Positions 44,046-55,880 of a DNA stretch of 64,000 bases are shown here, in pieces (within the stretch, counting starts at the first letter, position 1; every line of letters starts with the position of its first letter). A program made the translations under genes and the position numbers. Source of the DNA: Clostridium sp. (GTDB lineage Bacteria; Bacillota; Clostridia; Clostridiales; Clostridiaceae); NCBI RefSeq assembly GCF_036643715.1, contig NZ_JAVXRL010000008.1, forward strand, positions 2,722 to 66,721, given 5' to 3'. The notes beneath the pieces are model-generated. The model did no database searches, was not told the DNA's origin, and saw nothing but the letters and a program-made list of their open reading frames with translations.

Positions 44046-44130
44046 ATCTTATCAAGAGTGGTGGAGGGACTGGCCCTATGAAACCCAGCAACCTATATAA
44101 AATGTGGTGCTAATTCCAGACAGATAAGGA
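44046..44130 (+). promoter_or_regulatory. SAM-I (S-box) riboswitch aptamer, apparently without P4
   Basis: CTTATCAAGAG-TGGTGGAGGGACTGGCCCTATGAAACCCAGCAACC...GGTGCTAATTCC-agaca-GATAAG, upstream of metF. Confidence 0.92.
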
Positions 44131-44198: not shown

Positions 44199-45086
44199 AT
44201 GAATATTAGAGAGATTTTTAATGAAAAAAAATTAGTATTATCTTTTGAAGTATTTCCACCAAAGAGTACTTCGCCTGTTAAGAGTATTTATACAGCGTTG
44301 AATGAACTTAGCAGTTTAAGACCAGATTTTATTAGTGTAACCTATGGGGCAGGTGGAAGTCTTACAAATAATAAGACTTCTGAAATTTCATCATTAATAA
44401 AAAATGTGTACAATATTGAGGCATTAGCACATTTAACATGTATATCTTCGAGAAAAGAGGATATAGATATTATTACAGAACATTTAGAACTTGAAGGAGT
44501 ATCAAATATTTTAGCTTTAAGAGGAGATGGGGAGTCTAATCTTAATATAGATTATAAATATGCAACAGAACTTATTGATTATATTAGGGAAAAGAATAAG
44601 TTTAATATAATTTCTGCATGTTATCCTGAAGGTCATATAGAAAATAAAGGATTAGAAGAAGAAATAATGAATATGAAAAGAAAAGTTTCATCTGGAACTA
44701 CAAGTTTTATATCACAATTATTTTTTGATAATAATCTATACTATAACTTTTTAGAGAAAACAAGAAATAATGGAATTGAAGTTCCTATTCAAGCTGGTAT
44801 TATGCCAGTTATCAATAAGAAACAAATTGATAGAATATCTTCTATGTGTGGGGCGAGCATTCCAACTAAATTTAGAAAGATAATGGAGAAGTATGAGTAT
44901 AACAGCGAAGCATTAAGAGAAGCTGGTATTGCATACGCTGTAGAGCAAATAATTGATTTGGCATCAAGTGGGGTTGATGGGATACATCTTTATACAATGA
45001 ATAATCCATATGTAGCAAGAAGGATTAAAGAAAATGTAGATATAATAATAAAATCAATAAATGAAGAGGGGGAAACTATAGCATGA
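44199..45086 (+). CDS. metF: 5,10-methylenetetrahydrofolate reductase
   Basis: 'SFEVFPPK', 'SVTYGAGG', 'AHLTC', 'LALRGD', 'YPEGH', 'SQLFFD', 'HLYTMN'. Confidence 0.95.
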   Translation: MNIREIFNEKKLVLSFEVFPPKSTSPVKSIYTALNELSSLRPDFISVTYGAGGSLTNNKTSEISSLIKNVYNIEALAHLTCISSRKEDIDIITEHLELEGVSNILALRGDGESNLNIDYKYATELIDYIREKNKFNIISACYPEGHIENKGLEEEIMNMKRKVSSGTTSFISQLFFDNNLYYNFLEKTRNNGIEVPIQAGIMPVINKKQIDRISSMCGASIPTKFRKIMEKYEYNSEALREAGIAYAVEQIIDLASSGVDGIHLYTMNNPYVARRIKENVDIIIKSINEEGETIA

Positions 45087-45538: not shown

Positions 45539-46226
45539 TGTGAGTTTAAACATTGATGAAAATGAAGTTCTTCGCTATTTAGGATACAAAGGCCAAGTAA
45601 TAGGAGAAGAACTTCTTCTAAAAATAAGAAGTACAATAGAAGAGGGAAAGAAACTTATTAAACCCAAGATTATATATAAAGAGTATGATATAAATAGCCT
45701 AGATAAAGGAATAGAAGTTATTGGAACTACATTAGTTTTAGAGGGGAAAGATATAAAAAACCTTTTGAAAGAGTGTAATAGATGTGTATTAATGGCGGCA
45801 ACTATTGGAAATTATATAGAAAAGAAAATAAGGTTTTATGAGAAGATAGACCTTACAAGAGCATTGATTTTAGATGCTGTTTCTACTACTGCAGTTGAAT
45901 GTTTATGTGATAGTGTATGTACTTCAATTGAAGATTCTTTAATTAAAGATAATTTAGAACTCACTTTTAGGTATAGCCCTGGATATGGAGACTTGAATTT
46001 AAACATTCAAAGAGATTTTATAAATGTTTTAAATGGATCTAAAGAAATTGGAGTTAATGTTTCAAAACATATGATATTATTTCCTAGGAAATCTGTAACT
46101 GCTATAGTTGGAATAAGAAGAAAATTAGGAGAAAAGGCTAAAAAAAGTTGTATTAATTGCGGAAACTACGAAATTTGCTTATATAGAAAAGAGGAGAATG
46201 CTTGTGGATGTACGAGAATATGTTAA
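45528..46226 (+). CDS. Stand-alone methionine synthase activation-domain protein
   Basis: 'EVLRYLGY', 'MAATIG', 'RYSPGYGDL', 'PRKSVTAIVG'. Overlaps luxS and metH. Confidence 0.85.
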   Translation: MDNNVSLNIDENEVLRYLGYKGQVIGEELLLKIRSTIEEGKKLIKPKIIYKEYDINSLDKGIEVIGTTLVLEGKDIKNLLKECNRCVLMAATIGNYIEKKIRFYEKIDLTRALILDAVSTTAVECLCDSVCTSIEDSLIKDNLELTFRYSPGYGDLNLNIQRDFINVLNGSKEIGVNVSKHMILFPRKSVTAIVGIRRKLGEKAKKSCINCGNYEICLYRKEENACGCTRIC

Positions 46227-48597
46227 AGAAAATATAGTAGTATTTGATGGTGCTATGGGAACTATGCTTCAAGATTTAGGAGTTAAGCTTGGAGAAAATA
46301 TGGAAAAGCTTAATATTACAGAAAGTGAAAAGATAAGAGATATACATAAACAGTATATAAAGAGTGGTGCGAGTGTTATTACAACTAATACTTTCGGCGC
46401 TAATGAAATTAAATTAGAAAATACAGTATATTCAGTTGAAGAAATAATAGATAAGGCAGTCTTAATTGCTAAGGAAGCAAGAGGAAATAATAAATGTTAC
46501 ATTGCGTTGGATATAGGTCCTATTGGAGAGTTATTAGAACCTATGGGAACATTAAGTTTTGAAAAGGCGATTAATATATTTAAAAGACAAATAATTCAAG
46601 GTGTAAAGTCTGGTGTAGATTTAATATTAATTGAAACTATGACAGATCTTTATGAAATGAAAGCTGCAATAATTGCAGCAAAAGAAGTTTGTGATTTACC
46701 TATATTCGCAAGTATGACATTTGAAGAGGATGGTAGAACATTTACTGGATGTCTTCCTGAAAGTATGGCTATAACATTAGAAGCTTTAGGTGTGGATGCA
46801 GTAGGAATTAATTGCTCACTAGGACCTAAAGAACTTAGTAATATAGCTAAAAAAGTAATAAACAATACTAATCTACCAGTAATACTTCAGCCAAATGCAG
46901 GCCTTCCCAAAATTGTTGATGGAAAAGCAGTTTACAATATAAGTAAAGAAGAATTTAAGAAAGAAGTTGAGAAGTTAGTTAATATTGGTGTATCAATTAT
47001 AGGAGGGTGTTGTGGGACAACTCCCGATTTTATTAAAGAGCTTAATAAAATTAAGAAAAATAAAAAAAGAGTTTTAAGGAATGAAGTTAGTATTTATGCA
47101 GTTACTTCACCATCAAAAGTTGTATATATAGACGAAGTTAGAGTAATTGGAGAGCGAATAAATCCAACAGGTAAAAAATTATTTAAAAAGGCTCTTATTG
47201 ATAGGGATATGGACTATATATTAAAGCAAGCTATAGAACAAGTAGAAGGTGGAGCTGAAATATTAGATGTTAATGTTGGACTTCCAGAAATAAACGAAGA
47301 GGAAATTATGGAAAGTGCAATAAAAGAAATTCAAGGAATATTAGACATTCCACTTCAAATTGATTCAGGAAAGAGTAAAGTGATAGAGAAAGGACTTAGA
47401 GTGTATAATGGTAAGCCTATAGTTAACTCTGTAACTGGAGAAATTAAAGTTCTAGATAGAGTACTTCCTCTAGTTAAGAAGTATGGAGGAGCTGTTGTAG
47501 GGCTTACATTAGATAATAGAGGAATACCAAGCAGTGCAGAAGAAAGATATGAAATAGCAAATACAATTGTAACTAAAGCTATAGAGTATGGAATAAAGAG
47601 AGAAGACGTATATATAGATTGTTTAACATTAACAGTATCAGCGCAGCAAGAAGATGTAATGGAAACACTTAAAGCTGTAAAATTAGTTAAAGATAGGCTT
47701 AATGTTAAAACTCTTTTAGGAGTATCAAATATATCTTTTGGACTTCCAAATAGAGACTTGATAAATGAAACATTTCTAGCATTAGCATTAAATTCAGGGC
47801 TGGATCTTCCGATAATGAATCCTAATAAAGAGGGGATGATGAACGTTATTAATTCATTTAAAGTCCTAAACAATAATGATAAAAAAGCTAAATGTTTTAT
47901 AGAGAAGTATGGAAATAAAAAGATTGAAAGAGTTATAGTACAAGATGAGAAACCTAAGACTGAAAATAATGATGAAGAATCATTACAAAATTCTATAATA
48001 AAGGGGCTTAAAAACAGTACTAAAAAGTATACTGAGGAGCTACTTAAAAGCAAAAGTGAACTTGAAATAGTTAATGAATACTTAATACCAGCATTAGATA
48101 AGGTAGCAGAAAAGTATGAGAGTGGAGAAATATTTCTTCCTCAATTAATTCAATCTGCAGAAACTGTGAAAGTGTCTTTTGATATTATTAAGGAGCGATT
48201 AATTAATAGCAATATTACAGGAGTTTGTAAGGGGGATATATTACTAGCTACAGTTAAGGGGGATGTACACGATATAGGTAAAAATATAGTTAAAGTTATT
48301 TTAGAAAATTACGGATATAACATTTTAGATTTAGGTAAAGATGTTCCTATTGAAAAAGTTGTAAATGAAGCTATAAAAAATAATATTAAGCTTGTTGGAT
48401 TAAGTGCACTTATGACAACAACAATAAAGTCAATGGAGGATACAATTGCCCAGTTAAAAAAAGCAGGATATAAAGGTAAAATAATGGTTGGTGGAGCTGT
48501 TTTAACTAAGGATTATTCTGAAAAAATAGGGGCAGATTATTACTCTAAAGATGCAAAAATGAGTGTTGAGATCGCTAAGGAAATATTCGACAATTAA
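46198..48597 (+). CDS. metH: Cobalamin-dependent methionine synthase lacking the activation domain
   Basis: 'FDGAMGTMLQ', 'GINCS', 'GGCCGTTP', 'IGERINPTG', B12 motif 'DVHDIGKNIV'. Confidence 0.93.
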   Translation: MLVDVREYVKENIVVFDGAMGTMLQDLGVKLGENMEKLNITESEKIRDIHKQYIKSGASVITTNTFGANEIKLENTVYSVEEIIDKAVLIAKEARGNNKCYIALDIGPIGELLEPMGTLSFEKAINIFKRQIIQGVKSGVDLILIETMTDLYEMKAAIIAAKEVCDLPIFASMTFEEDGRTFTGCLPESMAITLEALGVDAVGINCSLGPKELSNIAKKVINNTNLPVILQPNAGLPKIVDGKAVYNISKEEFKKEVEKLVNIGVSIIGGCCGTTPDFIKELNKIKKNKKRVLRNEVSIYAVTSPSKVVYIDEVRVIGERINPTGKKLFKKALIDRDMDYILKQAIEQVEGGAEILDVNVGLPEINEEEIMESAIKEIQGILDIPLQIDSGKSKVIEKGLRVYNGKPIVNSVTGEIKVLDRVLPLVKKYGGAVVGLTLDNRGIPSSAEERYEIANTIVTKAIEYGIKREDVYIDCLTLTVSAQQEDVMETLKAVKLVKDRLNVKTLLGVSNISFGLPNRDLINETFLALALNSGLDLPIMNPNKEGMMNVINSFKVLNNNDKKAKCFIEKYGNKKIERVIVQDEKPKTENNDEESLQNSIIKGLKNSTKKYTEELLKSKSELEIVNEYLIPALDKVAEKYESGEIFLPQLIQSAETVKVSFDIIKERLINSNITGVCKGDILLATVKGDVHDIGKNIVKVILENYGYNILDLGKDVPIEKVVNEAIKNNIKLVGLSALMTTTIKSMEDTIAQLKKAGYKGKIMVGGAVLTKDYSEKIGADYYSKDAKMSVEIAKEIFDN

Positions 48598-51420: not shown

Positions 51421-51532
51421 TAAGCAGAACTTATGGCCCACATAATATATACGTATATATTGTGTGGGCTTAGTCTATGATATAATATTACTAAGGGTAA
51501 TATTATTGGAAATAGGTATATGGGGTGGTATT

Positions 51533-52396
51533 ATGGTTAAAGATTACTTAGAACTTACTGTAGATGAAAAAGATAAAACGTTATTATTTATAGATAGAAA
51601 TAATGGAAGTATTTCTTTATCAGAGATGGATAGAATGTTTAAAAGTAAAGTTTATGGCTATGGAAAAGGAATACTAATTTTAGAACAAAATAATAAAGTA
51701 ATTGGAATTGGAAGAATAGTATTACAAGAGATTAAAATTACAGGAATAGCATATATACATTTTTTAGATATATTAGAAGATTTAGATGATACAAAAGAAG
51801 TAATAAAAGAATTAATTAATGAATGTTTTACAAAAGCTGAGGAACATAAGGCAAAGAAAATACTTCTTGGGTTTAGAAAAAGAGAAACAACCGAAATGCT
51901 TCATGAAATTGGATTTGATGCAGATTATGAGGCTAAGATTATGACTTTAAATGATAGAGAAAAAAGAGAAGATATATTAAATATTGAAGAGATAAATGAA
52001 AATAATATAAAAGAATATATTAAGCTATATAATGAATCCTTTAATAATATGCCTCATGGGGCGTCATTAGATGAAGAAGAAGCAAATGGCTTTTTAAATG
52101 AGAGCAATACTTGCAATAAATATTTTATAGTTTCTAATTCAAAAGAAAATATAGGAGTTTTAAATACTACTATAGAAGATAACGAAGGTACTTTTGATAT
52201 AGGTCTAAGTAGTAGATTTAGAGGAAAAGGATATGGAAAGAGATTATTAGAAACGGCAATTGATTATTTAAACGAGAAAAAAATACCAAATATTTATTTG
52301 GTTGTTATTGAAACAAATAAAATTGCTTATAATATGTATAAGAAAAGAGGTTTTGAGCAACAAAAAGTACTCAGTTATTGGATAAAATTAAAATAA
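51533..52396 (+). CDS. Tandem-domain GNAT N-acetyltransferase
   Basis: ATG 51533. C-terminal 'FRGKGYGKRLL', 'AYNMYKKRGF'. Confidence 0.82.
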   Translation: MVKDYLELTVDEKDKTLLFIDRNNGSISLSEMDRMFKSKVYGYGKGILILEQNNKVIGIGRIVLQEIKITGIAYIHFLDILEDLDDTKEVIKELINECFTKAEEHKAKKILLGFRKRETTEMLHEIGFDADYEAKIMTLNDREKREDILNIEEINENNIKEYIKLYNESFNNMPHGASLDEEEANGFLNESNTCNKYFIVSNSKENIGVLNTTIEDNEGTFDIGLSSRFRGKGYGKRLLETAIDYLNEKKIPNIYLVVIETNKIAYNMYKKRGFEQQKVLSYWIKLK

Positions 52397-52472
52397 TAAA
52401 AAAAGTAGTACATTTTTTAATAAAATCGAATATAATTATATAGTAAATCTCTTTGCACTGCATATAAATCTA

Positions 52473-52558
52473 CAGTACAAACTGATCAGGCCATAAATTT
52501 TTATTTATGGAGCCGGGCCAAATAGGCAACAGGAATATTATATACCTGTGGGACAGTA
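52473..52558 (+). promoter_or_regulatory. NiCo (czcD) riboswitch aptamer
   Basis: GTACAAACTG-ATCAGG-[ccataaat/atttatgg]-AGCCGG-[gcc/ggc]-AA-[cagg/cctg]-TGGGA-CAGT four-way junction pattern, matching the NiCo consensus as I recall it. Confidence 0.85.
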
Positions 52559-52581
52559 AAATGTTCTACGGGTATTTTTTT
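52543..52581 (+). terminator. Terminator mutually exclusive with the NiCo aptamer
   Basis: tacctgtgggaca-gtaaaa-tgttctacgggta plus T7. The 5' arm uses the P4 and P1 3' strands. Confidence 0.8.
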
Positions 52582-52687
52582 ATCTAAGAACATTTATTGT
52601 AACTATCTATTCTTATGCATTGACATAGAGCTATCAAAATAAATGACCTAGACAATATGTCTATGGCGAAATTTGGAGGTAACTTTT

Positions 52688-55213
52688 ATGGCACAAGAAA
52701 AAAATGATATTATGAAAGGTTTAACAAATGATGAGGCTAAGGCAATTCAGGAAAAGGTAGGCAAAAATCAATTAATTCCTGAGAAAAAAGAAAGCTTTTT
52801 TATGAAGATTATCGAAGTAATTAAAGAGCCGATGTTCTTGCTTCTTATGGTTGCAGCTATAATATACTTCGTATTAGGCGAACCTAAAGATGGATTAATT
52901 ATGCTAGTATTCGTAGTTGGAGTAATTAGTATTGAAGTAATTCAAGAATGGAAGACAGATAAGACATTAAAAGCACTTAAAAATCTGTCTGCACCTCATA
53001 TAGAGGTTATTAGAGACTTTGAGAAATTAGTAATAAATAGTGAAGATTTAGTCCCTGGTGATTTAATGATTGTAACAGAAGGAGTGAAAATTCCAGCTGA
53101 TGGAGAAGTAATTGATTCAAGTGACCTTTGTATAGATGAATCTTCTTTAACAGGAGAAGCTGAAGGAGTATGGAAATATAATAGTAACGTAGAATATGAT
53201 AGTTCTAATGATTATTTTAGACGGGATTACTGTTATGCAGGTACTTTAGCAATCCAAGGAAGTGGAGTAATTTTAGTTAAGAAAATAGGATCTAGTACTG
53301 AATACGGTAAAATCGGTAAAGATATTTCTGAGACAGTAGAAAGTAGTACGCCACTTCAAAGACAGACAGGTAAACTTGTTAAAGTATGTGCAGGAATTGC
53401 TGGAGTATTTTTTGCATTAGTTAGTTCTATAACTTACTTAAATTTAGATACTCTTATTTTAAAAGATAGGATAATTCAAAGTATACTATCAGGAGTAACT
53501 CTTGCAATGGCTATGATACCTGAGGAGTTTCCAGTAGTATTAACTGTATTCTTATCAATGGGGGCATGGAGACTTGCTAAGAAAAATTCTCTTGTTAGAA
53601 AATTACCATCTGTTGAAACTTTAGGTGCAATATCTGTTTTATGTGTAGATAAGACGGGCACTATAACAATGAATCAAATGACTTTAAGTAATACTTGGTC
53701 TAAAGAGAATGATAATAAAAGATTATTAGAAGTTATGGGAATGGCATGTGAGACAGAAGCTTATGACCCTATGGAAAAAGCAATGATTAAGTATTGCGAG
53801 GAAAATGGAATATCAAAAGATTCATTGTTTAATGGTGAGTTAATAACAGAATATTCATTTACAAATGAAAGTAAGATGATGGGACATGTATGGAAAAGAG
53901 ATGAAGGGATAGTAGTTGCATCAAAAGGATCTCCAGAGAAAATTCTAAGTATATGTAACGTTAATGAAATAGAAAGAAAAGAAATTGAAAATAAAATATT
54001 TGAAATGTCAACAAAAGGTCTTAGAGTTATTGGTGTAGGTGAGATGAAAGTAAAAGATGAAGAAGAAATTAAAGATACTCTTGAAGAATGTGATTTAAAG
54101 TTTCTTGGACTAGTTGGACTTTTAGATCCACCAAGGGATGGCATAAAAGAAGATATAGAAGAATGCAACAAAGCATCTATAAGAGTTGTAATGATAACAG
54201 GGGATAATGGTATTACAGCAAGTTCGATAGCCAAAAAGGTTGGTATTAGTCATAGTGATGAAATAATTACTGGTGATGAATTAAATAAAATGAGTGATGA
54301 AGAACTTAGGGAGAAAGTTAAGCATGTAAGTATTTTTTCAAGGGTTATTCCAGAGCATAAAATGCGTATAGTTAAAGCATTTAAAGATAATGGAGAAATA
54401 GTTGGAATGACTGGAGATGGAGTAAATGATGCACCCGCATTAAAGTATGCAGATATTGGGATAGCAATGGGTAAGAGAGGATCAGAAGTTTCAAGAGAAG
54501 CTGCGGATTTAATTCTTTTAGATGATAATTTTAGTACTATAGTTGATACTGTTAAAGATGGAAGGCGAATATACGATAATATTAGAAAAGCTGTTGGATA
54601 TATTTTTACAATACACATACCTATAGCATTTTCTGCATTACTTGCACCAATATTAGGTATAGGTTCTTCACTTCTTTTGCTGTTGCCAGTTCATGTTGTA
54701 CTTCTAGAATTAATAATAGATCCTACTTGTTCTATAGTTTTAGAGAGGCAACCAGCAGAAGAAGATATAATGAAACGTAAGCCTAGAGATCCAAATGAAA
54801 GTATATTAACAAAATGGGTTCTCATAAAGAGTATAATACAAGGGCTTGCAATATTTGCTGCATCCTTTGGAACTTATTATATTTATTTGAATAATGGTTA
54901 TGGAGATGCTAATATAGCAAGAACTATGGGACTTTCTATAATTATAATTTCTAATATACTATTAGTTCAAGTAAATAGTTCAAATAGTGAATTTGCATAT
55001 AAATCCTTAAAAAACTTAGTTAAAGATAAAGTAATGTGGTTTGTTAATGGGGGAGCTATAGCTGGACTTCTAATTATAATGTATACACCTATAGCTAATT
55101 TCTTAAAACTTGCACCACTTGGATTTAAAGAATTACTAATAGTAATCGGAGCAGCATTTGTAGCTGTTATGTGGTATGAATTAGTAAAATTTTTTAAAAA
55201 GATAAATAGATAG
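52688..55213 (+). CDS. Cation-translocating P-type ATPase, P2-like topology with atypical PEEFP motif
   Basis: ATG 52688 with RBS ggagg. 'TGE', 'DKTGT', 'TGDN', 'GDGVNDAP'. No N-terminal metal-binding domain and no CPx motif. Confidence 0.92.
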   Translation: MAQEKNDIMKGLTNDEAKAIQEKVGKNQLIPEKKESFFMKIIEVIKEPMFLLLMVAAIIYFVLGEPKDGLIMLVFVVGVISIEVIQEWKTDKTLKALKNLSAPHIEVIRDFEKLVINSEDLVPGDLMIVTEGVKIPADGEVIDSSDLCIDESSLTGEAEGVWKYNSNVEYDSSNDYFRRDYCYAGTLAIQGSGVILVKKIGSSTEYGKIGKDISETVESSTPLQRQTGKLVKVCAGIAGVFFALVSSITYLNLDTLILKDRIIQSILSGVTLAMAMIPEEFPVVLTVFLSMGAWRLAKKNSLVRKLPSVETLGAISVLCVDKTGTITMNQMTLSNTWSKENDNKRLLEVMGMACETEAYDPMEKAMIKYCEENGISKDSLFNGELITEYSFTNESKMMGHVWKRDEGIVVASKGSPEKILSICNVNEIERKEIENKIFEMSTKGLRVIGVGEMKVKDEEEIKDTLEECDLKFLGLVGLLDPPRDGIKEDIEECNKASIRVVMITGDNGITASSIAKKVGISHSDEIITGDELNKMSDEELREKVKHVSIFSRVIPEHKMRIVKAFKDNGEIVGMTGDGVNDAPALKYADIGIAMGKRGSEVSREAADLILLDDNFSTIVDTVKDGRRIYDNIRKAVGYIFTIHIPIAFSALLAPILGIGSSLLLLLPVHVVLLELIIDPTCSIVLERQPAEEDIMKRKPRDPNESILTKWVLIKSIIQGLAIFAASFGTYYIYLNNGYGDANIARTMGLSIIIISNILLVQVNSSNSEFAYKSLKNLVKDKVMWFVNGGAIAGLLIIMYTPIANFLKLAPLGFKELLIVIGAAFVAVMWYELVKFFKKINR

Positions 55214-55229
55214 TATTTAAATAAGATGA

Positions 55230-55263
55230 AAATAGATAGCCTGTAATCGGGCTATCTATTTTT
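55230..55263 (+). terminator. Intrinsic terminator after the P-type ATPase
   Basis: aaatagatagcc / ggctatctattt plus T-run. Confidence 0.75.
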
Positions 55264-55352: not shown

Positions 55353-55880
55353 ATGGATTTTATAAGGCTAAAAAATATTGATAATTCAGATTGGAAAAAG
55401 GTATTTGAAATATATAAAGAAAGTTTTCCAAAGTATGAGTTAAGAAATATAGAAGACCATGAAGAAGCTATGAAAGATGATAAATTCTTCTGTGTATATG
55501 TAAAAGATGAAGATAAGTTAGTTGGAATTATATTTTACTGGGAATGGGAACACTTTAGATATATTGAACATTTTGCAGTAAATTCAAAATTAAGAGGTGG
55601 ACGTTATGGTTCAAGAATAATAGAGAAGTTATGCAAAGACGATAAGACGACAATTCTTGAAATTGACCCTATAGTTGATGAAATATCAGAACGTAGATTA
55701 GTATTTTATGAAAGATTAGGGTTTGTAATGAATAAGTTCACTCATCTACATCCTCCATACAAAAAAGATGATAAAGGTCATGAGCTAAAGGTTTTAAGTT
55801 ATAAGAGAACTATAAATGATAAGGAATTTGAAAATTTTGAGACATTTTTAGAAAATCATATAATGAAATATTCTGAATAA
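55353..55880 (+). CDS. GNAT N-acetyltransferase
   Basis: 'YIEHFAV', 'RGGRYGS', 'RRLVFYERLGF', 'HPPY'. Confidence 0.82.
   Translation: MDFIRLKNIDNSDWKKVFEIYKESFPKYELRNIEDHEEAMKDDKFFCVYVKDEDKLVGIIFYWEWEHFRYIEHFAVNSKLRGGRYGSRIIEKLCKDDKTTILEIDPIVDEISERRLVFYERLGFVMNKFTHLHPPYKKDDKGHELKVLSYKRTINDKEFENFETFLENHIMKYSE

What the first reader, a model, noticed from the sequence alone, without database searches (positions are those of the whole stretch)
52431..55213. NiCo riboswitch driving a non-P1B P-type ATPase with a remodelled ion-binding site
Seen: a complete NiCo aptamer whose 3' strands also form a terminator, so metal binding should switch the gene on. The ATPase has P2-like topology but differs from Ca2+ pumps in the membrane helices: M4 PEEFP instead of PEGLP, M5 'YIFTIHIP' with His where SERCA has Asn, M6 'LLELIIDPTCS' with Glu where SERCA has Asn. 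It has no CPx motif or N-terminal metal-binding domain. Established: NiCo riboswitches bind Co2+, Ni2+ and Fe2+ cooperatively and mostly control metal exporters, and known transition-metal P-type pumps are P1B. Inference: a transition-metal efflux pump built on a Ca-ATPase scaffold, whose substrate is indicated by its riboswitch. Helix alignment is by eye.
Basis: partly seen in the sequence, partly recalled or inferred. Interest (0 to 1): 0.75.

Follow-up and report, generated by a model that had tools for sequence, protein, structure and literature searches.

The report
NiCo riboswitch-controlled P2-like metal pump
A metal-sensing RNA switch (NiCo class) sits in front of a calcium-pump-like ATPase whose ion-binding residues have been replaced by His, Glu and Cys. 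The same RNA–gene pairing recurs across many anaerobic bacteria, which points to an uncharacterised family of iron/cobalt/nickel export pumps that has not been tested biochemically.

Summary
A complete NiCo aptamer (52472-52558) scores 74.4 bits against a gathering score of 37. Its 3' strands form the 5' arm of a 14-bp terminator followed by a T7 run (52542-52582). The 841-aa ATPase (52688-55213) has P2 architecture and fold, with Listeria LMCA1, SPCA1 and SERCA as nearest structures. It has no CPx motif and no metal-binding N-terminus. It carries PEEFP in M4, His643 at SERCA N768, and Glu674 at SERCA N796.

This is not a local oddity. NiCo lies directly upstream in 64 of 78 orthologous loci from other species, and 61 of 65 leaders have the same terminator design. 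The PEE(F/L/I)P / His / Glu-x3-Asp-Pro-x-Cys signature persists down to 36% identity, including a Gram-negative branch without NiCo.

The best reading is an ON switch by antitermination that drives a single-site Fe2+/Co2+/Ni2+ efflux pump. No member of the family has been characterised.

The literature already records a NiCo-regulated "MgtA-like" ATPase (Ccel_1038) of unknown function. I could not confirm that it belongs to this family. A Mn-riboswitch-controlled P2 pump is a known precedent. So this is a new variant of a known kind. Substrate and transport direction remain inferred.

The parts
52417..52444 (+). Candidate sigma-70-type promoter (TTAATA-16-TATAGT). It would start the transcript about 20-25 nt before the aptamer.
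   Evidence: Consensus scan, 9 of 12 matches. This is weak evidence, and promoter-like sites are not enriched over shuffles in this AT-rich DNA.
52472..52558 (+). NiCo (czcD-motif) riboswitch aptamer, complete P1-P4 four-way junction.
   Evidence: Rfam RF02683, 74.4 bits against a gathering score of 37, model positions 1-96 of 96. It aligns with 58 aptamers found upstream of orthologues, and the invariant core nucleotides are shared.
52542..52582 (+). Intrinsic terminator (14-bp stem, 6-nt loop, T7 run). Its 5' arm is the 3' part of the aptamer (CCTGTGGGACAG).
   Evidence: Terminator scan. It is the MFE fold of the ligand-free leader. The same design occurs in 61 of 65 NiCo leaders of this gene family.
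52675..52679 (+). Shine-Dalgarno sequence GGAGG, 8 nt before the ATG.
   Evidence: Read directly from the sequence.
52688..55213 (+). 841-aa P2-like P-type ATPase of the 'PEEFP' family. The coordinates include the stop codon.
   Evidence: Translation. Pfam finds Cation_ATPase_N, E1-E2_ATPase, Hydrolase and Cation_ATPase_C. No NCBIfam equivalog cutoff is reached; only the generic TIGR01494 passes. The AF2 model has pLDDT 79.7, and the best fold matches are LMCA1, SPCA1 and SERCA.
53519..53533 (+). M4 motif P278-E279-E280-F281-P282. E279 corresponds to SERCA E309, and E280 replaces SERCA G310.
   Evidence: E280 is invariant in 80 of 80 loci and in all 149 aligned cluster representatives. E279 is present in 80 of 80 loci and in 136 of 150 representatives. 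The AF2 model breaks the M4 helix at residues 277-279.
53648..53662 (+). Phosphorylation motif DKTGT (D321).
   Evidence: The motif is invariant in alignment A2.
54614..54616 (+). M5 His643, at the position of SERCA N768, LMCA1 Asn and Na,K-ATPase N776.
   Evidence: His is present in 78 of 79 aligned loci and in 143 of 150 representatives.
54692..54733 (+). M6 segment H669...E674-L-I-I-D678-P-T-C681-S682. Glu674 is at SERCA N796 and Asp678 at SERCA D800. Cys681 is the only Cys in M4-M6.
   Evidence: E674, D678, P679, C681, S682 and H669 are invariant in the 47-sequence alignment that spans both branches.
55229..55262 (.). Palindromic GC-cored hairpin just after the stop codon. It is likely the end of the monocistronic unit.
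   Evidence: The terminator scan reports it on the minus strand, and the stem is a perfect palindrome. No downstream partner gene is conserved across the 80 loci.

Best explanation
The locus is a monocistronic metal-detoxification unit.

Switch. Transcription starts shortly upstream of 52472. Without ligand, the nascent leader folds into the terminator (52542-52582) and transcription stops before the gene. When cytoplasmic Fe2+, Co2+ or Ni2+ rises to micromolar levels, the ions bind cooperatively in the NiCo four-way junction. This locks the CCTGTGGGACAG segment into P4 and P1, the terminator cannot form, and the ATPase mRNA is completed (ON switch).

Pump. The product is a 10-TM pump derived from the P2A lineage that has lost site I. 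Ile sits at the SERCA E771 position and Asn at the E908 position. Site II has been rebuilt from the Glu/Asn/Asn/Asp oxygen set of Ca2+ pumps into a softer set: Glu279 and Glu280 (M4), His643 (M5), and Glu674, Asp678 and Cys681 (M6), possibly with His669. Such a site suits one divalent first-row transition-metal ion, which the pump would expel from the cytoplasm per ATP.

Shown here: the aptamer, the shared-strand terminator, the P2 fold, the residue substitutions, their conservation, and the family-wide NiCo linkage.
Inferred: the metal identity (Fe2+, Co2+ or Ni2+, possibly Zn2+), the outward direction, the stoichiometry, and which residues actually ligate the metal.
For: - Riboswitch and terminator. 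The same platform occurs in 61 of 65 leaders.
- Linkage: NiCo lies directly upstream on the same strand in 64 of 78 orthologous loci with upstream DNA, plus one sub-threshold hit. The loci span Clostridiaceae, Peptostreptococcaceae, Oscillospiraceae, Lachnospiraceae, Erysipelotrichaceae, Desulfotomaculia, Syntrophomonadaceae and Negativicutes. No other riboswitch class was found upstream of any of them.
- Riboswitch-first sample: the 11 true NiCo elements from a metagenome scan precede this ATPase family (3) or Cation_efflux/CDF exporters (6). The pump therefore shares its regulator with known exporters.
- Site residues: they lie at canonical ligand positions and are nearly invariant down to 36% identity.
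- Exceptions fit the pattern, though n is only 2: the two orthologues with an altered site (L078 His->Lys, L079 Glu->Gln) both lack NiCo.
- Fold: the nearest structures are the outward single-site pumps LMCA1 and SPCA1.
- Ligand data from the literature: NiCo aptamers bind Fe2+, Co2+ and Ni2+ at about 1 uM and do not respond to Mn2+ (PMC9389577).
- Precedent: a Mn riboswitch turns on a P2 pump that relieves Mn toxicity (PMC6649816).
Against: - No member of the family has been assayed, and no solved structure is closer than LMCA1 (33% identity).
- AF2 coordinates could not be read, so the clustering of the proposed ligands is inferred from homology and was not measured.
- 13 of 78 orthologues, including three Enterococcus species, keep the signature without NiCo.
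- The Gram-negative branch has no NiCo, and its gene neighbourhoods are mostly uninformative.
- Fe2+, Co2+, Ni2+ and Zn2+ cannot be told apart from sequence.
- Published opinion on the one discussed example (Ccel_1038) leaned towards a Mg2+ importer (PMC9389577).
- No RNA-seq run covering this organism was found.
Confidence: 0.6

Rival explanations
1. The pump is a compensatory importer. Like MgtA, it would bring in Mg2+ or another protective cation when excess Fe/Co/Ni displaces it, so the riboswitch reports the stress and not the substrate.
For: Xu & Cotruvo 2022 (PMC9389577) proposed this for the NiCo-regulated Ccel_1038, annotated 'MgtA-like P3-type'. They point out that transport direction and selectivity of P-type ATPases are hard to predict.
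Against: - The MgtA model TIGR01524 scores 339 bits against a cutoff of 610.75, lower than the PMR1, SERCA, PMCA and H+-pump models.
- The nearest sequences and folds are outward pumps: LMCA1, SPCA1 and SERCA.
- A site lined by His and Cys is unlike a Mg2+ site (established coordination chemistry).
- The other genes under NiCo control in my sample are CDF exporters.
Confidence: 0.1
2. It is an ordinary Ca2+ or Ca2+/Mn2+ efflux pump, as databases label it ('Ca2+-transporting ATPase', 'P-type Ca2+ transporter type 2C'). Its NiCo control would then reflect cross-talk or general envelope stress.
For: The best NCBIfam hit is the PMR1-type Ca2+ pump model, and JGI names say Ca2+-transporting. The fold is closest to LMCA1 and SPCA1. 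Asp678 (SERCA D800) and Glu279 (SERCA E309) are retained.
Against: - The score of 494 bits is far below the PMR1 equivalog cutoff of 798.
- Both Asn ligands of site II are replaced (by His and Glu), Gly310 becomes an invariant Glu, and a conserved Cys appears in M6.
- NiCo aptamers do not respond to Mn2+ and are not known to sense Ca2+ (PMC9389577).
- The linkage to NiCo in 64 of 78 loci is too consistent for incidental cross-talk.
Confidence: 0.1
3. It exports a different soft metal (Zn2+, Cd2+ or Cu+/2+), with NiCo acting as a broad divalent-metal sensor.
For: NiCo aptamers bind Zn2+ with a Kd of about 2.7 uM in vitro (PMC9389577). A distant homologue in Syntrophus aciditrophicus lies beside a ZraP-like Metal_resist/LTXXQ gene and a sigma54 two-component system. 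A Cys and two His in M5/M6 would also suit Zn2+.
Against: Buffered cellular Zn2+ is far below micromolar, so the riboswitch is unlikely to see it in vivo (argument in PMC9389577). The Syntrophus context is a single case, and four other Gram-negative contexts show nothing similar.
Confidence: 0.12

Closest known systems
NiCo (czcD-motif) riboswitch regulons: CzcD-type CDF exporters and P1B4 ATPases (for example the Listeria plasmid LMO3448)
   Same: The aptamer class, the terminator/antiterminator ON logic and the presumed role (removing excess Fe2+/Co2+/Ni2+) are the same. CDF genes were the other NiCo partners in my riboswitch-first sample (PMC9389577).
   Different: The regulated protein is neither a CDF nor a P1B pump. 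It has 10 TM helices with Cation_ATPase_N and Cation_ATPase_C domains, no CPx/SPC motif and no HEGxT-type M6.
Ccel_1038 of Ruminiclostridium cellulolyticum (UniProt B8I9E0), a NiCo-regulated 'MgtA-like P3-type ATPase'
   Same: It is a non-P1B P-type ATPase reported as positively regulated by a NiCo riboswitch (PMC9389577, citing Furukawa 2015). It is very probably an orthologue, because this family was the only ATPase type found behind NiCo in my sample.
   Different: I could not fetch its sequence, so membership is untested. The published interpretation was a possible Mg2+ importer, and no analysis of its ion site has been published that I could find ('PEEFP' occurs in no relevant paper).
Mn2+ (yybP-ykoY) riboswitch-controlled P2 ATPases: S. 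pneumoniae MgtA/CaxP and L. lactis YoaB
   Same: A metal-sensing ON riboswitch drives a P2-type ATPase that protects against a transition metal (PMC6649816; PMC11477304). This is the closest precedent for the overall design.
   Different: The riboswitch class and the metal (Mn2+/Ca2+) differ. Those pumps are described as SPCA-like Ca2+/Mn2+ pumps. None of the 80 loci here had a yybP-ykoY element.
Listeria LMCA1 and human SPCA1 (single-site P2A Ca2+ or Ca2+/Mn2+ pumps)
   Same: They are the best sequence and fold matches (449 bits, 33% identity, TM-scores 0.7-0.8). Site I is absent in both, as here. The M4 Glu and the M6 Asp are retained.
   Different: M4 reads PEEFP where LMCA1 has PEALS and SERCA has PEGLP. 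The M5 Asn is His, the M6 Asn is Glu, and M6 reads DPTCS where LMCA1 has DSLPA. An invariant Asn sits where LMCA1 has Arg795.
P1B4 Fe2+/Co2+ pumps PfeT, FrvA and CtpD
   Same: The proposed physiological job is the same: ATP-driven efflux of Fe2+/Co2+. Both use His, Glu and Cys side chains in the membrane site (established knowledge; PMC9389577).
   Different: The lineage and topology are unrelated within the superfamily. The TIGR01525 heavy-metal model scores 245 bits against a cutoff of 346.

Membership tests
NiCo riboswitch (Rfam RF02683) | Covariance-model score at or above the gathering threshold over the full model | tested here: met
   74.4 bits against 37, model positions 1-96 of 96.
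NiCo riboswitch (Rfam RF02683) | Conserved junction nucleotides of the four-way junction | tested here: met
   All positions that are upper-case in the Rfam consensus are matched. The invariant columns A8, A9, G13, A14, G44-46, G55, C56, A57, G79-81, A82 and C83 are shared with 58 other aptamers.
NiCo riboswitch (Rfam RF02683) | Expression platform in which ligand binding prevents terminator formation (ON switch) | tested here: met
   The terminator's 5' arm is the aptamer's 3' strands. The design is conserved in 61 of 65 leaders.
NiCo riboswitch (Rfam RF02683) | Cooperative binding of Co2+/Ni2+/Fe2+ and metal-dependent read-through | not testable with these tools
   This needs ITC or in-line probing, plus in vitro transcription.
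P-type ATPase superfamily | DKTGT phosphorylation site, TGE, TGDN and GDGxNDxP motifs | tested here: met
   DKTGT at residues 321-325, LTGE at 154-157, TGDN at 504-507, GDGVNDAPAL at 576-585. TIGR01494 scores 282 bits against a cutoff of 62.
P1B heavy-metal ATPases | CPx/SPC motif in the ion-translocating helix, N-terminal metal-binding domain or His-rich tail, 6-8 TM topology | tested here: not met
   There is no CPx/xPC, CxxC or His-rich stretch. Ten helices are predicted, with Cation_ATPase_N and Cation_ATPase_C domains. TIGR01525 scores 245 bits against a cutoff of 346.
P2A/P2C Ca2+ pumps (SERCA, LMCA1, SPCA/PMR1) | 10-TM P2 architecture and fold | tested here: met
   Pfam domains. The Foldseek top hits are LMCA1, SPCA1 and SERCA with TM-scores of 0.7-0.84.
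P2A/P2C Ca2+ pumps (SERCA, LMCA1, SPCA/PMR1) | Site-II ligand set: PEGL-type M4 Glu, M5 Asn (N768), M6 Asn (N796) and Asp (D800) | tested here: not met
   The Glu and Asp are kept, but N768 is His643, N796 is Glu674 and G310 is Glu280.
P2A/P2C Ca2+ pumps (SERCA, LMCA1, SPCA/PMR1) | NCBIfam equivalog cutoff | tested here: not met
   PMR1-type 494 against 798.3, SERCA-type 438 against 703.4, PMCA-type 370 against 507.
P3B Mg2+ ATPase (MgtA/MgtB) | NCBIfam TIGR01524 / PRK15122 cutoff | tested here: not met
   339 against 610.75, and 279 against 975. The M4 motif is PEEFP, whereas MgtA has PEMLP (the MgtA motif is from memory).
'PEEFP' P2-like ATPase family (defined here) | M4 PEE(F/L/I)P, M5 H(I/V)P and M6 E-x3-D-P-x-C/S-S/T at the site-II positions | tested here: met
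   The window protein and 77 of 79 full orthologues carry the whole signature. Nearly all of the 150 cluster representatives carry it, down to 36% identity.

The most novel reading that the evidence does not exclude
The PEEFP proteins would be a previously unrecognised subfamily of P-type ATPases. It would be derived from P2A pumps, widespread in anaerobic Firmicutes and in Nitrospirota, NC10, Syntrophia and Betaproteobacteria. Its single His/Glu/Asp/Cys site would export Fe2+ (and Co2+/Ni2+). It would be one of the two main regulons of the NiCo riboswitch and an independent, non-P1B invention of ATP-driven iron detoxification.
Probability: 0.45. Interest if true: 0.72.

Novelty: new variant of a known kind. 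Interest (0 to 1): 0.6.

Why it matters
If confirmed, it would give a function to a large protein family now labelled only 'cation-translocating' or 'Ca2+-transporting' ATPase. It would show that P2-type pumps were re-tooled for first-row transition metals beyond Mn2+. It would also supply a natural, sequence-defined set of substitutions (G310E, N768H, N796E and an M6 Cys) that convert a Ca2+ site into a transition-metal site.

It bears on an open question in metal homeostasis: what the NiCo (czcD) riboswitch senses in vivo (Fe2+ or Co2+/Ni2+), and what the 'MgtA-like' genes behind it do (PMC9389577; PMC11672702). A pump whose substrate can be measured would make that question directly testable in strict anaerobes.

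Tried and rejected
- Single-sequence AF2 gave a useless model (pLDDT 37). The alignment-based model was good, but its coordinates are not exposed, so ligand geometry could not be measured.
- The metagenome pattern scan mostly returned chance matches in GC-rich DNA. Only 11 of 120 were true NiCo elements. The pattern required GCCGGGCC, which under-samples the GCTGGGCC variant common upstream of this ATPase. The 3:6 ATPase:CDF ratio is therefore only indicative.
- I looked for other regulators in the orthologues that lack NiCo. The permissive Rfam search on 12 of the 14 loci with upstream DNA found no other RNA family (L065 and L078 had only the gathering-threshold scan). Across 13 of the 14 (L065 not scanned for operator boxes), there was no upstream regulator gene and no convincing Fur, PerR or Zur box.
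- Five gene neighbourhoods of the Gram-negative branch were examined. Only Syntrophus shows a metal-stress neighbour, and none has NiCo by my own model.
- No downstream partner gene is conserved.
- No RNA-seq run holds this sequence, so the transcript ends could not be checked.
- Furukawa 2015 and the supplement of PMC9389577 are not held, and the sequence of Ccel_1038 could not be obtained. I ran no further search on a low-probability attempt to hit it.
- Mycobacterial CtpE, CtpF, CtpH and CtpI were considered as possible characterised relatives and rejected. They carry PEGL or PEGM (PMC3573892).
Full report
**What is there**

Rfam's NiCo model (RF02683) matches window 52472-52558 on the plus strand end to end, at 74.4 bits against a gathering score of 37. 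A consensus scan finds a terminator-like hairpin at 52542-52575 (14 pairs) followed by seven T. Its 5' arm is the last 17 nt of the aptamer, that is the P4 3' strand, the junction and the P1 3' strand.

Folded without ligand, 52472-52585 adopts this hairpin and loses P1 and P4, while P2 and P3 persist (-35 kcal/mol, z = -4.9). This is the shared-strand architecture expected of a transcriptional ON switch.

A weak promoter-like site (52417-52444) lies about 25 nt upstream.

The ORF finder starts the gene at TTG 52673. ATG 52688, 8 nt after GGAGG, is the likely start and gives 841 aa ending at 55213. A palindromic hairpin at 55229-55262 follows the stop. The flanking genes are two GNAT acetyltransferases, a transglycosylase and a Mur-ligase-like gene. 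The unit therefore looks monocistronic and is not part of a metal island.

**The protein**

Pfam finds Cation_ATPase_N, E1-E2_ATPase, Hydrolase and Cation_ATPase_C.

In NCBIfam the best models are the PMR1-type (494 bits) and SERCA-type (438 bits) Ca2+ pumps. Every equivalog cutoff is missed by a wide margin, including MgtA (339 against 611) and the heavy-metal P1B model (245 against 346). Only the generic P-type model passes.

The closest solved structure by sequence is Listeria LMCA1 (449 bits). An AF2 model built on a 47-sequence alignment reaches pLDDT 79.7 and pTM 0.69, with M4 unwound at residues 277-279. Foldseek ranks LMCA1, SPCA1 and SERCA first, with TM-scores of 0.7-0.84.

There is no CPx or xPC motif, no CxxC and no His-rich segment.

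HMMER alignments to LMCA1, Na,K-ATPase and SERCA give these equivalences:

| Residue here | Equivalent position |
|---|---|
| E279 | SERCA E309 |
| E280 | SERCA G310 |
| H643 | SERCA N768 |
| I646 | SERCA E771 |
| H669 | SERCA Q791 |
| E674 | SERCA N796 |
| I677 | SERCA T799 |
| D678 | SERCA D800 |
| N756 | LMCA1 R795 / SERCA E908 |

The SERCA numbering for H669 and N756 relies partly on my memory of the SERCA and LMCA1 sequences. The remaining equivalences follow from the printed alignments and their coordinates. Site I is gone, as in LMCA1 and SPCA. Site II has both Asn ligands replaced and gains a second M4 Glu and an M6 Cys.

**It is a family trait**

A scan of one genome per species returned 80 loci encoding relatives at 47-81% identity. 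Rfam at gathering threshold finds NiCo directly upstream on the same strand in 64 of them. Two loci have no upstream DNA, which gives 64 of 78. L019 has a sub-threshold match at the right place (31.5 bits). No yybP-ykoY, Mg or other riboswitch was found in front of any orthologue.

The hosts span Clostridiaceae, Terrisporobacter, Oscillospiraceae, Lachnospiraceae, Erysipelotrichaceae, Desulfotomaculia, Syntrophomonadaceae, Negativicutes and Christensenellales.

In 61 of 65 leaders a hairpin that begins inside the aptamer's 3' end is followed by a T-run.

The site signature across the 80 loci is as follows:
- P278, E279 and E280 are present in 80 of 80.
- H643 is present in 78 of 79 aligned loci (Lys in L078).
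- E674 is present in 78 of 79 (Gln in L079).
- D678 is present in 79 of 79.
- C681 is present in 78 of 79.
- The two loci with an altered site both lack NiCo, which fits the model but is anecdotal.

An exhaustive HMMER search of 1.84 billion cluster representatives returned 150 best hits from 64% down to 36% identity, and almost all carry the signature:

| Residue | Present in representatives |
|---|---|
| E280 | 149 of 149 aligned |
| H643 | 143 of 150 |
| E674 | 142 of 150 |
| D678 | 125 of 150 |
| C681 | 106 of 150 (Ser in 27) |

A branch at about 40% identity belongs to Syntrophus, Nitrospirota, NC10, Betaproteobacteria and others. Its members are all named only 'cation-translocating' or 'Ca2+-transporting' ATPase. 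That branch has no NiCo.

**Riboswitch-first view**

A degenerate NiCo pattern scanned over metagenome contigs gave 120 loci. My own covariance model, built from 59 aptamers, accepted 11 as true NiCo. Their downstream genes were:
- this ATPase family in 3 (64-68% identity);
- Cation_efflux (CDF) proteins in 6, of which four were confirmed by Pfam and two by resemblance to those;
- nothing recognisable in two identical human-gut contigs.

The pattern was biased against the GCTGGGCC variant that about half of the ATPase leaders carry. The ATPase share is therefore probably an underestimate. The pump shares its sensor with bona fide exporters.

**Mechanism**

I take the riboswitch half as well supported (about 0.9). 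By default the leader terminates. Micromolar Fe2+, Co2+ or Ni2+ stabilises the junction and sequesters the terminator's 5' arm, and the mRNA is completed. The reported affinities are about 0.5-1 uM for Fe2+, Co2+ and Ni2+, 2.7 uM for Zn2+, and no response to Mn2+ (PMC9389577).

The pump half is inference (about 0.6). The argument has three steps:
- P2 pumps bind their primary substrate from the cytoplasm in E1.
- The nearest relatives are single-site exporters.
- The rebuilt site (two or three carboxylates, one or two imidazoles and a thiol) suits a borderline divalent ion better than Ca2+ or Mg2+.

Which of Fe2+, Co2+ or Ni2+ (or Zn2+) is physiological cannot be decided here. The strictly anaerobic hosts and the published argument about buffered metal pools favour Fe2+.

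**Rivals**

- A Mg2+ importer acting in compensation. This was the published suggestion for Ccel_1038 (PMC9389577). It is disfavoured by the MgtA score, the site chemistry and the exporter company the gene keeps.
- An ordinary Ca2+/Mn2+ pump. This is disfavoured by the lost Asn ligands, the failed equivalog cutoffs and the specificity of the linkage.
- A Zn/Cd pump. This remains possible. One distant homologue sits beside a ZraP-like gene and a sigma54 two-component system, but four other contexts are silent.

**Relation to what is known**

NiCo riboswitches controlling CDF and P1B4 exporters are established. One NiCo-regulated non-P1B ATPase (Ccel_1038, 'MgtA-like') is on record with its function explicitly left open (PMC9389577). 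I could not obtain its sequence, so its membership in this family is likely but untested.

A Mn riboswitch turning on a P2 ATPase that relieves Mn toxicity (S. pneumoniae MgtA; L. lactis YoaB) is a direct design precedent (PMC6649816; PMC11477304). It also shows that 'transition-metal P-type pumps are all P1B' is too strong.

I found no paper describing the PEEFP signature. No curated NCBIfam model exists for the family, and no solved structure is closer than LMCA1.

I therefore rate this a new variant of a known kind. The kind is a riboswitch-gated metal efflux ATPase. What is new is that the pump lineage and the ion-site chemistry are uncharacterised. Interest is moderate to high (0.6), because the hypothesis is sharp, widely applicable and directly testable.

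**Limits**

- There is no experimental data.
- No ligand geometry is available from the model.
- The riboswitch-first sample is small and biased.
- No transcript data were found.
- No formal phylogeny against reference subfamilies was built.

Noticed in passing
window 44046-44130 (+), with genes 44199-45086 and 46198-48597: A SAM-I riboswitch (RF00162, 73.8 bits) lies upstream of a methylenetetrahydrofolate reductase gene and a B12-dependent methionine-synthase-like gene. This is an ordinary S-box methionine operon.
   Followed up: partly
L054 ~1290-1310, L055 ~1300-1320, L074 ~1330-1350 (about 130-190 nt before the ATPase start): The three Enterococcus orthologues lack NiCo. They share a palindrome-like element of the form TAGGG-N4-CCCTA upstream: TTTTAGGGATACCCCTATTTT, TTTTAGGGTCACCCTTATTT and TTTTAGGTATACCCAAAAA. 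It may be an operator for a protein regulator that replaces the riboswitch.
   Followed up: no
L014 and L043 (both from Ethanoligenens sp. MAG WK034_bin.8): One genome carries two paralogues of the ATPase (66% and 62% identity to the window protein), and each has its own NiCo riboswitch.
   Followed up: no
L201 8724-12642 (Syntrophus aciditrophicus CP000252.1): A distant homologue (about 40% identity, full signature, no NiCo) lies next to a Metal_resist/LTXXQ (ZraP-like) gene, a HisKA sensor kinase and a sigma54-dependent response regulator. It is divergent from a NiFe-hydrogenase cluster.
   Followed up: partly
Representatives P0189, P0195, P0208, P0210, P0216, P0222, P0259, P0261 and P0161, P0170, P0182, P0200, P0207, P0233, P0240, P0255: Sub-groups of the family replace the M6 Asp (D678). 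One has Gly (ELIMGPTCS, together with PEEIPVA in M4) and the other has His (EL.LHP). These may be further changes of ion specificity.
   Followed up: no
L141 9873-9979 and L199 1383-1489 (human-gut metagenome contigs): A high-scoring NiCo aptamer (75-78 bits with my model) has no recognisable ORF in the roughly 1 kb downstream. It is an apparent orphan riboswitch, or it precedes a degraded gene.
   Followed up: partly
Alignment A1 (NiCo aptamers upstream of the ATPase family): About half of the ATPase-linked aptamers read GCTGGGCC where the Rfam consensus and the window have GCCGGGCC, at the P2/P3 junction. This is a lineage-specific variant at a near-invariant core position.
   Followed up: no
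window 51464-52396 and 55353-55880: Two GNAT-family acetyltransferase genes flank the riboswitch-ATPase unit on the same strand. No link to metal handling is evident.
   Followed up: partly
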